Shown: piece by piece, positions 4,085 through 17,604 of the stretch | Position numbering within the stretch: the stretch's first letter is position 1 | Layout: each line of letters opens with the position of its first letter | Source of the DNA: Mobula hypostoma | Lineage: Eukaryota | Reading direction: 5' to 3' | DNA length: 64,000 bases | Assembly (NCBI RefSeq): GCF_963921235.1 | Contig: NC_086108.1 | Span: forward strand, 558,001-622,000 | Position numbers and translations under genes: made by a program | The notes under the pieces: generated by a model | The model's input: the letters and a program-made list of their open reading frames with translations, nothing else | What the model was told of the DNA's origin: nothing | Databases searched by the model: none

Positions 4085-4228
4085 TTCCTTTGCATTCTCA
4101 TACCAGAGCATCTGTTCTGCGACCAGAACATAAACGCCATCACTGAGAAGGCACGACAGCAACTCTACTTCTTTCGACGTTTGTGTACATTCGGTATGGC
4201 ACCAAAAACTTTGACACTCTTCTACAGG
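4085..4228 (+). mobile_element. Rex1/Babar-like LINE fragment (left half, interrupted at ...TLFYR)
   Basis: [31 protein letters not shown]. The expected continuation (T.ESILTGCI.VWYGN) appears at 16991. Confidence 0.8.
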
Positions 4229-7200
4229 AAACCACACTACAGGACACCCCACAACAGGACACCGCACGACAGGACATCGCACTACAGGACACCGCACTAC
4301 AGGACACCGCACTACAGGACATCGCACTACAGGACACTGCACTACAGGACACTCTTCTACAGGACACCACACTACAGGACACCCCACTACAGGACACCGC
4401 ACTACAGGACATCGCACTACAGGACACCGCACTACAGGACACCGCACTACAGGACATCGCACTACAGGACACTGCACTACAGGACACTTTTCTACAGGAC
4501 ACCGCACTACAGGACACTTTTCTACAGGACACTCTTCTACAGGACACTCTTCTACAGGACATCGCACTACAGGACACCGCACTACAGGACATCGCACTAC
4601 AGGACATCGCACTACAGGACACTCTTCTACAGGACACCACGCTACAGGACATCGCACTACAGGACACCGCACTACAGGACACTCTTCTACAGGACACCAC
4701 GCTACAGGACATCGCACTACAGGACACCCCACTACAGGACACCGCACTACAGGACATCGCACTACAGGACACCGCACTACAGGACACTCTTCTACAGGAC
4801 ATCGCACTACAGGACACCGCACTACAGGACACTCTTCTACAGGACACCACGCTACAGGACATCGCACTACAGGACACCGCACTACAGGACACTCTTCTAC
4901 AGGACACCACGCTACAGGGGACATCGCACTACAGAACACCCCACTACAGGACACCGCACTACAGGACATCGCACTACAGGACACCGCACTACAGGACACT
5001 CTTCTACAGGACATCGCAATACAGGACACCACGCTATAGGACACCACGCTACAGGACACTTCTTCTACAGGACACCGCACTACAGGACACCGCACTACAG
5101 GACATCGCACTACAGGACATCGCACTACAGGACACTCTTCTACAGGACACCCCACTACAGGACACTCTTCTACAGGACATCGCACTACAGGACACCACGC
5201 TACAGGACACCACGCTACAGGACACTCTTCTACAGGACACTCTTCTACAGGACACCGCACTACAGGACATCGCACTACAGGACACTCTTCTACAGGACAC
5301 CGCACTACAGGACACCGCACTACAGGACATCGCACTACAGGACACCCCACTACAGGAGACTCTTCTACAGGACACCGCACTACAGGACACCACGCAACAG
5401 GACACCCCACTACAGGACAATCTTCTACAGGACATCGCACGACAGGACATCGTACTACAGGACACCCCACTACAGGACACCCCACTACAGGACACCACAC
5501 TACAGGACACCCCACTACAGGACACCCCAATACAGGACACCGCACTACAGGACATCGCACTACAGGACACTCTTCTACAGGACACCCCACTACAGGACAT
5601 CGCACTACAGGACACTTTTCTACAGGACACCGCACTACAGGACACTCTTCTACAGGACACCCCACTACAGGACACCGCACTACAGGACACCGCACTACAG
5701 GACACTTTTCTACAGGACACCGCACTACAGGACACTCTTCTACAGGACATCGCACTACAGGACACCGCACTACAGGACACCGCACTACAGGACATCGCAC
5801 TACAGGACACTCTTCTACAGGACACCGCACTACAGGACACCGCACTACAGGACATCGCACTACAGGACATCGCACTACAGGACATCGCACTACAGGATAC
5901 TCTTCTACAGGACACCACGCTACAGGACATCGCACTACAGGACACCGCACTACAGGACACTCTTCTACAGGACACCACACTACAGGACATTGCACTACAG
6001 GACACCGCACTACAGGACACCGCACTACAGGACATCGCACTACAGGACACCGCACTACAGGACACTCTTCTACAGGACACCGCACTACAGGACACCGCAC
6101 TACAGGACACTCTTCTACAGGACACCGCACTACAGGACACCGCACTACAGGACACTCTTCTACAGGACACCGCACTACAGGACACCGCACTACAGGACAC
6201 CCCACTACAGGACACTCTTCTACAGGACACTGCACTACAGGACACCACACTACAGAACACTCTTCTACAGGACACCGCACTACAGGACACCGCACTACAG
6301 GACACCCCGCTACAGGACACTCTTCTACAGGACACCGCACTACAGGACACCGCACTACAGGACATCGCACTACAGGACACCCCACTACAGGACACTCTTC
6401 TACAGGACACCGCACTACAGGACACCACACTACAGGACACCGCACTACAGGACATCGCACTACAGGACACCGCACTACAGGACACCGCACTACAGGACAC
6501 TCTTCTACAGGACACCGCACTACAGGACACCGCACTACAGGACACTCTTCTACAGGACACCGCACTACAGGACATCGCACTACAGGACATCGCACTACAG
6601 GACACCGCACTACAGGACACCGCGCTACAGGACACCACACTACAGGACACTCTTCTACAGGACACCGCACTACAGGACATCGCACTACAGGACATCGCAC
6701 TACAGGACACCGCACTACAGGACACTCTTCTACAGGACACCGCACTACAGGACACTCTTCTACAGGACACCGCACTACAGGACACCGCACTACAGGACAC
6801 CCCACTACAGGACACCGCACTACAGGACACCGCACTACAGGACACTCTTCTACAGGACACCGCACTACAGGACACCGCACTACAGGACACTCTTCTACAG
6901 GACACCGCACTACAGGACACCGCACTACAGGACATCGCACTACAGGACACCGCACTACAGGACACCGCACTACAGGACACCGCACTACAGGACACCGCAC
7001 TACAGGACACTCTTCTACAGGACACCGCACTACAGGACACCGCACTACAGGACACCCCACTACAGGACACCGCACTACAGGACACCGCACTACAGGACAC
7101 CCTTCTACAGGACACCGCACTACAGGACACCGCACTACAGGACACTCTTCTACAGGACACCACACTACAGGACATCGCACTACAGGACATCGCACTACAG

Positions 7201-16496: not shown

Positions 16497-16990
16497 AAGG
16501 ATGTGGAAACCATAGAAAGGGTGCAGAGGAGATTTACAAGGATGTTGCCTGTATTGGGGAGCATGCCTTATGAGAATAGGTTGAGTGAACTTGGCCTTTT
16601 CTCCTTGGAGCGACGGAGGATGAGAGGTGACCTGATAGAGGTGTATAAGATGATGAGAGGCATTGATCGTGTGGATAGTCAGAGGCTTTTTCTCAGTGCT
16701 GAAATGGCTGGCACGAGAAAGCACAGTTTTAAGGTGCTTGGAAGTAGGTACAGAGGACATGTCAGGGGTAAGTTTTTTATTCAGAGTGGTGAGTGTGTGG
16801 AATGGGCTGCCGGCGACAGTGGTGGAGGTGGATACGATAGGGTCTTTTAAGAGATCCTGGATAGGTACATGGAGCTTAGAAAAATAGAGGGCTATGTGTA
16901 ACCCAAGGTAATTTTTAAAGTAAGTACATATTTGGCACAGCATTGTGGACTGAAGGATCTGTATTGTGCTATAGGTTTCTGTGTTTCTAT
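16485..16990 (+). mobile_element. 5'-truncated CR1 LINE (RT C-terminus plus 3'UTR)
   Basis: [22 protein letters not shown]...[31 protein letters not shown]1 tail GTGGACTGAAGGATCTGTATTGTGCTATAGGTTTCTGTGTTTCTAT. Confidence 0.92.
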
Positions 16991-17604
16991 GCACAGCGGA
17001 GAGTATCCTAACTGGTTGCATCATTGTCTGGTATGGAAACACCAATTCTCATGAATGGAAAAGGCTACAGAAAGTAGTAAAGACAGCCTTATTCATCACA
17101 GATGAAACATAGATCAGGGATTCCCAACCTTTTTATGCCATGAACCCCATGAACCAAAGGGTCCGTGGACTCCAGATTGGACATAGAGCACATTTACATG
17201 GAGCCCTGCCACAAGAAAGCAGCATCCATCATCAAAGACTCCGCCATTCAGGCCATGCTCGCTTCTCACTGCTACCACTGGGCAAGAGGTACAGCAGTCC
17301 CAGGTTCCACACCACCAGGTTCAGGAACAATTACCATCAACCATTAGACTCCTGAACTAGCATCGAAAACTTCAGTCACCACACCTCTGAACTGATTCTC
17401 AATCTAGAGACTCCCTTTCAAGGACTACAGAAAGCATGCTCTCAGTATAATGTACTTCTTTATTTGCACAATTTGTCATCTTTCGCACATTGGTTGTTTG
17501 CCAGTCTTTGTTTACGTATAGTCTTTTTCATAAATTCTATTGTATTTCTTTATTTTCCTCTAAGTGCCTGCAAGTAAATGAATATCGAGGTAGCTCATGG
17601 TGAG
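16991..17604 (+). mobile_element. Rex1/Babar-like LINE, right half; tail finishes at about 18044-18068; a short hAT-like fragment lies at 17115-17180
   Basis: TAESILTGCIIVWYGN, KKAASIIKD and GKRYSSPRFHTTRFRNNY, then 3'UTR. CAGGGATTCCCAACC at 17115 resembles an hAT terminal repeat. Confidence 0.8.

What the first reader, a model, noticed from the sequence alone, without database searches (positions are those of the whole stretch)
4085..17040. A 12.3-kb minisatellite born at a LINE-into-LINE junction, built from both parents
Seen: the left flank is a Rex1-like ORF ending ...KTLTLFYR (GACACTCTTCTACAGG). The right flank is a CR1 starting ...[14 protein letters not shown] (CCGCACTACAGGAAGGATG), and after the CR1 tail the Rex1-like ORF resumes (TAESILTGCIIVWYGN at 16991). 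The unit ACACTCTTCTACAGG is identical to the host's last 15 bp. The dominant unit ACACCGCACTACAGG ends in the CR1's first 12 bp. The two share the 7-bp microhomology CTACAGG. Inference: microhomology at the CR1 5' junction created a two-unit seed that was amplified to about 820 copies, either by reiterative template slippage during insertion or by later unequal exchange. The origin of a large VNTR is readable here at single-base resolution.
Basis: partly seen in the sequence, partly recalled or inferred. Interest (0 to 1): 0.8.

Follow-up and report, generated by a model that had tools for sequence, protein, structure and literature searches.

The report
Minisatellite seeded by LINE insertion junction
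A 12-kb run of about 820 fifteen-base repeats sits exactly where one jumping gene landed inside another and is built from sequence of both; the insertion likely left a two-unit seed that probably expanded much later, giving an unusually readable record of how a minisatellite starts.

Summary
The array is real: 820 units of 15 bp at 4214-16496, at the 5' junction of a truncated CR1-type LINE. The CR1 is inserted bluntly into an older PF09004-bearing LINE, and homologues show the two host flanks join with no gap. About 20% of units are the host's last 15 bp. About 80% are a chimera of host ACA(C) and CR1 sequence. Correction: the CR1 family majority reads TCG CCT here, so the match is 11 of 12 bases, not 12 of 12. 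The 7-bp shared motif appears twice, 15 bp apart, rather than fused, so the seed needed a 3-4-base flank-copied addition, a known LINE 5'-joining product. Single-locus status, array length and allelic variation were not testable, as no genome is held. The scan has no look-alike of this sequence; two unchecked notes report amplified retrotransposon 5' ends or junctions elsewhere in this genome. The parts are known; I found no printed case of the combination.

The parts
4085..4228 (+). Left part of host LINE (PF09004 region that follows the RT in such elements), ending ...KTLTLFYR
4213..4228 (+). Host-type unit C (4214-4228) plus the preceding G; G or GA at 4213-4214 is the likely re-annealing primer that sets the 15-bp period
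   Evidence: sequence; primer role inferred
4214..16496 (+). 15-bp minisatellite, 820 units, interspersed variant repeats (161 host-type, 645 chimeric host/CR1-type, 3 tied, of 809 full-length units)
16482..16496 (+). Last unit A: host ACA(C) + CR1 C[T>G]CACTACAGG, contiguous with the CR1 body
   Evidence: CR1-family loose ends before 16488 in 4 of 4 runs; host-family paralogue at 45567 carries TTTGACA
16485..16989 (+). 5'-truncated CR1-type LINE (ORF2 C-terminus and 3' UTR)
   Evidence: 72-73% DNA identity in the three best and 51-69% protein identity in the main matches to other copies in the window; 70,000-131,000 contigs laid per run on 16452-17951, with depth highest over this part
16976..16991 (+). 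CR1 3' tail, two 8-bp units (TTTCTGTG TTTCTATG); the last 2-3 bases are shared with the host (3' microhomology)
   Evidence: sequence; the junction is also in an organism C contig (record 31)
16990..17333 (+). Right part of host LINE, resuming in frame at CTAESILTGC...; blunt insertion, no target duplication or deletion
   Evidence: in 129 of 150 homologues with at least 12 upstream residues, F(-3) 95, Y(-2) 110, R/S(-1) 89 and C(0) 110 lie with no gap; paralogue matches at 45585 and 45700
17115..17180 (.). Small insertion in the right host part with a 7/8 matching 8-bp flanking duplication (hAT-MITE-like; label recalled); serves as an orthology marker
   Evidence: spacing kept (about 180 vs 178 bases) in the organism C contig

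Best explanation
This is a two-parent minisatellite at the 5' junction of a truncated CR1 LINE; the insertion likely created its two-unit seed, and ordinary minisatellite turnover probably expanded it long afterwards. Shown: the CR1 went in bluntly at FYR^CT of an older LINE, with 2-3 bp of 3' microhomology. Shown: the host end and the CR1 share CTACAG(G), and the array mixes the host's last 15 bp (unit C) with a chimera of host ACA(C) and CR1 bases (unit A). Inferred: during 5'-end joining the 6-7-bp match held the CR1 cDNA and the host end in register across a 4-base mismatch. A polymerase then copied 3-4 bases of host flank, released, and re-annealed on a 1-2-base G/GA match one unit away, leaving C and A head to tail (11 of 15 identical). 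Whether the cDNA end or the host end was extended, and by which enzyme (RT template jump or Pol theta), cannot be read from the product. Inferred: the dimer, with repeats GACAC and CTACAGG each 15 bp apart, persisted as a short array and gained a few variants (B, E, J, I). It then grew by many short (about 1-10 unit) duplications and conversions that scrambled unit order. No function is implied.
For: Host continuity: PF09004 stops at profile position 37 of 42 at the array edge, and homologues of the right flank carry L-x-N-F-Y-R/S directly before C-T (129 usable of 150). 7 of 15 homologues scanned pair RVT_1 with PF09004. CR1 parentage: at the 4 positions where A and C differ, the CR1 family majority agrees with A at 3 and with C at 0. 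Host parentage of A's first bases: ACA is not in the CR1 majority (TCG) but is in a host paralogue. A 7-mer match within 40 positions has a chance of about 0.002. Flank-templated extra bases are a described product of L2-clade LINE 5' joining (PMC4760211, PMC4245944). Later amplification: the 10 positions common to both seeds are only 0.83% diverged (67 of 8090). The CR1 copy differs from its family majority at 10-15 or more of about 430 positions (2.3-3.5%, only 40 of 100 rows shown), and the tail junction is shared with organism C at about 9.5% divergence. Rare variants share 3.1 neighbouring units against 1.40 +/- 0.20 by chance, never reached in 2000 draws. C/A recombinant units occur with switch points between positions 4|5, 5|6 and 6|7.
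Against: The seed itself is not seen: no empty allele and no array-free or short allele was recovered. Position 6 of A (G) matches neither parent. Positions 4-5 of C differ from the one host paralogue and from the commonest residue N (59 of 129), so 'C equals the host end' is partly self-referential. If the donor CR1 read TCA rather than TCG (as a sister family does at 31183), only one extra base is needed and the host contribution to A shrinks. The age argument leans on one organism C contig (record 31), and distance from a family majority can include donor differences. Core divergence may under-read age if units with a damaged core are copied less. Run X1 may be the assembly's own sample.
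Confidence: 0.7

Rival explanations
1. The seed arose after insertion. The CR1 joined cleanly, one 15-mer was later duplicated by slippage on GA..GA (host side) or GG..GG (CR1 side), and the other parent's unit entered by recombination or by ectopic conversion from another CR1 copy.
For: Both parents have a 1-2-base direct repeat 15 bp apart. The CR1 family is very abundant. Slippage on short flanking repeats is a standard model (PMC3389668, PMC6947457).
Against: A clean microhomology join would delete the CR1 bases upstream of CTACAGG, yet A keeps them (3 of 4 diagnostic positions). None of the 820 units is a pure CR1 15-mer. It needs two rare events where the junction model needs one described one.
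Confidence: 0.15
2. The whole 12 kb was written in one event at insertion by a polymerase that kept switching between the host and CR1 templates.
For: Unit order is close to random at long range: the longest exact repeat is 10 units, against a shuffle mean of 7.5 and maximum of 14. C and A units are spread along the whole array. Multi-round templated insertions exist in SD-MMEJ (PMC2943611).
Against: Simulated one-step arrays aged 2.3% give at least 110 unit types, core divergence of at least 1.9% and a largest derived type of at most 74 copies in 100 runs; observed are 75 types, 0.83% and 153. Multi-mutation units recur with the same neighbours, e.g. at 13251 and 14884, which needs copying of already-mutated DNA.
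Confidence: 0.05
3. The array is one site of a multi-locus satellite that landed or recombined here, or its length is inflated by assembly.
For: No genome is held, so other loci could not be searched. No listed read-derived piece spans even the 1.5-kb flank. One tandem junction in X1 contigs is absent from the assembled array, so reads hold variants that the assembly lacks.
Against: Both unit types are explained by this locus's own flanks, in register. There is no second array in the window and no look-alike in the scan's notes. The longest exact internal repeat is 161 bp and only 11 of 820 units have indels, which is unlike a mis-join. X1 contigs show a go-back joint within the units (possibly the assembly's own sample).
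Confidence: 0.07

Closest known systems
5' extra nucleotides (EX) of zebrafish L2-clade LINEs ZfL2-1/ZfL2-2, 'annealing' pathway of 5'-end joining (PMC4760211 part 2 read; PMC4245944 parts 2-3 and passages; PMC2666801 passages)
   Same: Truncated LINE joined to the target with a few extra bases copied from flanking genomic or LINE DNA; short microhomology at both ends; about 40-50% of inserts carry EX.
   Different: The passages I read describe EX as junction scars and do not report them expanding into an array. Here the scar is a two-unit tandem that became 12 kb.
Haber and Louis (1998) model of minisatellite birth from 5-10-bp flanking direct repeats; Alu-derived minisatellites of Jurka and Gentles (both seen only as summarised in PMC3389668 and PMC6947457, passages and one section)
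   Same: A 7-bp direct repeat one unit apart (7 bp is the commonest length in PMC3389668) followed by slippage, conversion or unequal exchange.
   Different: There the repeats pre-exist within one sequence and give one unit type. Here the two repeats come from two elements brought together by retrotransposition, and both parental units persist (about 20:80).
Loop-out synthesis-dependent MMEJ (Yu and McVey 2010, PMC2943611, passages; its Supplementary Fig. S4 not seen)
   Same: A short primer repeat on one side of a break, limited templated synthesis and re-annealing leave a direct repeat spanning the junction.
   Different: Defined for nuclease breaks in Drosophila. The primer here would be only 1-2 bases, and enzyme dependence is untestable from sequence.
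TE tandem dimers as satellite seeds (McGurk and Barbash 2018, PMC5932611, abstract and outline); maize CRM1TR/CRM4TR (PMC3648361, abstract)
   Same: Transposition supplies the first tandem pair, and recombination expands it.
   Different: Their units are whole elements or hundreds of bases of one element. Here the unit is a 15-bp junction sequence of two unrelated LINEs.
Human autosomal minisatellites with interspersed variant repeats (PMC2599865, abstract and introduction)
   Same: Unit of 9-100 bp, highly interspersed variants, short patchwork duplications.
   Different: 820 units is far above the 48-118 of MSY1 and the roughly 100 given as usual in PMC6947457. Allelic variation was not measured here.

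Membership tests
Minisatellite / VNTR | Tandem array of 9-100-bp units | tested here: met
   15-bp period, 820 units
Minisatellite / VNTR | Interspersed variant repeats shaped by repeated turnover | tested here: met
   85 segment types; context sharing 3.1 vs 1.4 units
Minisatellite / VNTR | Length varies among alleles | not testable with these tools
   only contigs available; none spans the array
Minisatellite / VNTR | Single locus | tested here: inconclusive
   no second array in the window or in scan notes; no genome held
Satellite with higher-order repeat | Long recurring multi-unit block | tested here: not met
   longest exact repeat 10 units / 161 bp, within shuffle range
CR1-clade LINE (insert) | ORF2 C-terminus plus 3' tail of 8-bp repeats (octamer tail as a CR1 hallmark is recalled) | tested here: met
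   abundant family in 4 of 4 runs
CR1-clade LINE (insert) | 5' truncation with short or no target duplication and end microhomologies | tested here: met
   blunt, 2-3-bp 3' overlap; the published CR1 peak is 3-5-bp TSD (PMC4245944), so 0 is off the peak
CR1-clade LINE (insert) | RT phylogeny or match to a curated CR1 consensus | not testable with these tools
   fragment lacks the RT; no repeat library; Pfam gave no family
Rex1/Babar LINE (host) | PF09004 directly after the RT domain (link to Rex1/Babar is recalled) | tested here: met
   7 of 15 homologues have RVT_1 with PF09004, 11 of 15 have PF09004
Rex1/Babar LINE (host) | RT phylogeny placing it in the Rex1/Babar clade | not testable with these tools
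   no RT in this copy and no named references; the paper search on the domain name listed 15 unrelated papers
LINE 5' EX by the annealing pathway | Extra bases at the 5' junction that copy flanking target or LINE DNA | tested here: met
   ACA(C) between the host end and the CR1 bases equals host 4214-4217; later homogenisation cannot be fully excluded
Loop-out SD-MMEJ | Primer repeat on one side and a direct repeat spanning the junction | tested here: inconclusive
   direct repeat present; primer repeat only G or GA
Loop-out SD-MMEJ | Polymerase theta dependence | not testable with these tools
   needs genetics

The most novel reading that the evidence does not exclude
LINE 5'-end joining is a recurrent factory for minisatellite seeds. 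Whenever a truncation point lies beside a short match to the target, templated end-joining leaves a two-parent tandem dimer, and in this lineage such junction scars are repeatedly blown up to more than 10 kb. This would supply a missing initiation route for TE-associated tandem repeats, of which PMC3389668 could explain only 6%. It can be tested by a genome-wide scan of LINE 5' junctions.
Probability: 0.3. Interest if true: 0.7.

Novelty: new variant of a known kind. Interest (0 to 1): 0.45.

Why it matters
How minisatellites start is still poorly documented: one human survey could assign a known initiation model to only 6% of 7,276 TE-derived tandem repeats (PMC3389668, section 13). Both parents here are known repeat families, so the pre-insertion state can be reconstructed and the seed traced to a described by-product of LINE insertion. 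The locus also separates birth from growth. The insertion is shared with a relative about 9.5% diverged, while the units are under 1% diverged at their shared core. Relatives at about 1.5% and 9.5% divergence exist in public data, so the intermediate stages can be looked up directly. It is a neutral by-product with no sign of function, and each mechanistic step is already known.

Tried and rejected
No whole genome is held, so the single-locus test could not be run. A 26-base CR1 pattern found 0 matches in metagenome contigs and 0 in viral contigs, so no DNA of other family copies could be fetched. Two word-index protein searches with the 62-aa left flank and the 40-aa right flank found nothing; the full HMMER scan did. 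Laying contigs at 88% likeness flooded the tables with paralogues: no row on the array side was shown for organisms B, C or H. Contigs fitting two places of the stretch numbered 12, 0, 2 and 1 in X1, X5, X9 and X20, with X5 read to about 84%. My first greedy parse drifted out of phase and was replaced by the optimal parse. A higher-order repeat and an assembly duplication were sought and not found; a second-order Markov model accounts for most of the short-range order. No 5'-to-3' sorting of the two parental units: C-type falls only from about 19 to about 11-16 per 82 units. The long open frames across the array follow from a 5-codon period and were not taken as a gene. An alternative in which unit B (ACA TCG CAC) is the primary chimera, by a 3-base skip in CR1 TCG CCT CAC, explains the G at position 6 and the T at position 4 together, but it could not be told apart from two point mutations. 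Ichiyanagi 2007/2008, Kajikawa 2012, Haber and Louis 1998 and Taylor and Breden 2000 were not read. No supplements were opened; the junction tables of PMC4245944 and PMC2666801 may hold small tandem EX cases.
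Full report
Observation. The array is there. TRF reports 4222-16497, period 15, 819.5 copies, no indels. An optimal parse of 4214-16496 gives 820 segments, 809 of 15 bp. Seven types make up 692 of 820: A ACACCGCACTACAGG 297, B (C4>T) 153, C ACACTCTTCTACAGG 126, E (G6>C) 60, I (G6>A, A8>G) 26, J (G6>A) 18 and D 12. Of the 809 full units, 645 are nearer A, 161 nearer C and 3 tie. The A unit has 664 near matches in the window against 2.24 by chance. 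Outside the array nothing lies within two mismatches of A or C. Earlier scan notes call this genome a ray (unchecked).

The host element. The left flank translates to ...[27 protein letters not shown] and hits PF09004 at profile positions 2-37 of 42, stopping at the array edge. The right flank resumes at the Cys codon at 16990. A HMMER scan with the 40 right-flank residues found 229 proteins at E up to 0.001, of which the best 150 were returned. In the 129 with at least 12 residues upstream, L at -6 (96), F at -3 (95), Y at -2 (110), R or S at -1 (48, 41) and C at 0 (110) follow with no gap. The two flanks are therefore one LINE cut with no duplication or loss at the codon level. Of 15 homologues scanned, 11 carry PF09004 and 7 pair it with RVT_1. 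That this layout marks the Rex1/Babar clade is recalled, not tested.

The insert. 16485-16989 matches many other LINE copies in the window, the three best at 72-73% DNA identity, and ends in two 8-bp tail units whose last TG or ATG overlap the host. Contigs of four public runs laid on 16452-17951 show a very abundant family. Its copies leave the window's sequence before 16488 and read ...TGG TCG CCT there in all four runs (168, 163, 278 and 122 contigs, agreement 0.72-0.82). So A matches the family at 11 of its last 12 bases, not 12. At the four positions where A and C differ, the family agrees with A at three and with C at none. A's first three bases, ACA, are not in the family majority but are in a host paralogue at 45567. 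A is thus a host/CR1 chimera with one unexplained base (G6). One ambiguity remains: if the host read AGA TGC, its left end stops at 4227, the shared motif is 6 bp, and the last G of unit C is CR1-derived. Both readings are blunt and in frame.

How the seed likely formed (inferred). An ordinary microhomology join would fuse the two CTACAGG motifs into one. Here they stand 15 bp apart with ACA(C) plus CR1 bases between them. The simplest route is that the 6-7-bp match set host and cDNA in register, 3-4 bases of host flank were copied, and the strand re-annealed on a G or GA one unit away. A 7-mer match within 40 positions has a chance of about 0.002. Flank-templated extra bases at LINE 5' junctions are described for zebrafish L2-clade elements, in about 40-50% of inserts, with 1-2-bp annealing (PMC4760211 part 2; PMC4245944 parts 2-3 and passages; PMC2666801 passages). 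Loop-out SD-MMEJ gives the same geometry (PMC2943611 passages). Duplicated target bases at R2 5' junctions are also on record (PMC2718515 passages). The product is a dimer 11 of 15 identical, with two short repeats one unit apart, which is the Haber-Louis substrate (as summarised in PMC3389668 and PMC6947457).

When it grew. At the ten positions common to both seeds the units are 0.83% diverged (67 of 8090). The CR1 copy differs from its family majority at 10 positions (at least 85% of depth in X1) to 15 (over half) in about 430 bases, counting only the 40 of 100 rows shown. One organism C contig covers 14 bases of CR1 tail, the junction and the host, keeps the spacing of the small insertion at 17115-17180, and differs at 31 of about 330 aligned bases. 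Organism B flank contigs differ at 5 of 326. The insertion is therefore probably older than the A-C split. Simulated arrays made in one step and aged 2.3% give at least 110 unit types, core divergence of at least 1.9% and no derived type above 74 copies in 100 runs; the real array has 75 types, 0.83% and 153. The 76 copies of rare variants share on average 3.1 neighbouring units with a partner, against 1.40 +/- 0.20 and a maximum of 2.16 in 2000 draws. Multi-mutation units recur in patchwork, for example at 13251 and 14884, and at 12186, 13534 and 14968. Repeated 4-unit strings are in excess (1151 vs 492 +/- 75), while the longest exact repeat is 10 units, within the shuffle range. This is the interspersed pattern of long-running minisatellite turnover (PMC2599865 introduction), not one synthesis event and not a higher-order satellite.

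Results against or unexplained. No empty or short allele was seen. The first unit C is itself part of the array, and its positions 4-5 differ from the paralogue and from the usual Asn codon. A sister CR1 family reads TCA at this codon; a donor like that would need only one extra base. All frequent variants fall in unit positions 4-8 (about 0.04 by chance for the three non-CpG ones), and C rarely follows C (7 vs 31.6 expected). Both may reflect copying that needs an intact CTACAGG-ACA core, in which case 0.83% under-reads the array's age. The age bound rests on one contig.

Artefact and multi-locus checks. The longest exact repeat in the array is 161 bp and 11 of 820 units have indels, which is unlike a mis-join. 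X1 contigs include a go-back joint inside the units, though X1 may be the assembly's own sample, and that joint's variant is not in the assembled array. No look-alike was found in the scan's notes. Length, allelic variation and single-locus status are untested because no genome is held.

Novelty. Ten paper searches and passages of two reviews (PMC9659126, PMC12628747) gave TE-derived minisatellites, TE tandem dimers (PMC5932611 abstract), retrotransposon-derived maize repeats (PMC3648361 abstract) and LINE junction scars. None listed a minisatellite whose units are the two sides of a LINE insertion junction. The library lacks most subscription papers, including the key CR1/L2 junction studies, and no supplements were opened. 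Passages of PMC2912911 and of bioRxiv 10.64898/2026.06.26.733778 added nothing on this. Two unchecked notes from the same genome describe an amplified retrotransposon 5' end (13.5 kb) and an amplified 28S/R2 junction; they motivate the wider reading but are not evidence. Verdict: a real, well-resolved new variant of TE-seeded minisatellite, with the seed probably made at insertion (0.7) and growth later. Interest 0.45.

Noticed in passing
window 47873-48470 and 50002-50248: Two 47-bp tandem arrays (12.6 and 5.3 copies) whose unit aligns to the 3' end of a CR1-type family in the window. A second kind of LINE-derived minisatellite, present at two sites, with a further match near 51396-51642.
   Followed up: partly
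window 4214-16496, unit positions 4-8: All frequent variants lie in the five positions where the parents differ or adjoin, while the 10-base core is 0.83% diverged; host-type units avoid each other (7 vs 31.6 expected). Unexplained.
   Followed up: partly
window 4040-8923: The array is in frame with both parents (TLFYR and PHYR), giving a 1627-codon stop-free frame from the host ORF into the repeat; a consequence of the 5-codon period.
   Followed up: no
window 4214-4483: The first nine units are a more mutated copy of the next nine, a local block duplication at the host edge.
   Followed up: partly
window 18164-18254 (+): Candidate 91-bp exon with good splice signals (RPPEMYDQWLEQIQAQ...); no Pfam or PDB match. 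If real, the array may lie in or near an intron.
   Followed up: partly
window 17115-17180: Small insertion with a near 8-bp flanking duplication inside the right host fragment (hAT-MITE-like, label recalled).
   Followed up: partly
window 37436-37894: A (CATTCC)n-based array of about 460 bp with 30- and 167-bp sub-periods.
   Followed up: no
window 21823-22582 and 39462-40244: Two 90% identical copies of a roughly 770-bp element; the first splits a LINE whose halves are contiguous in other copies.
   Followed up: no
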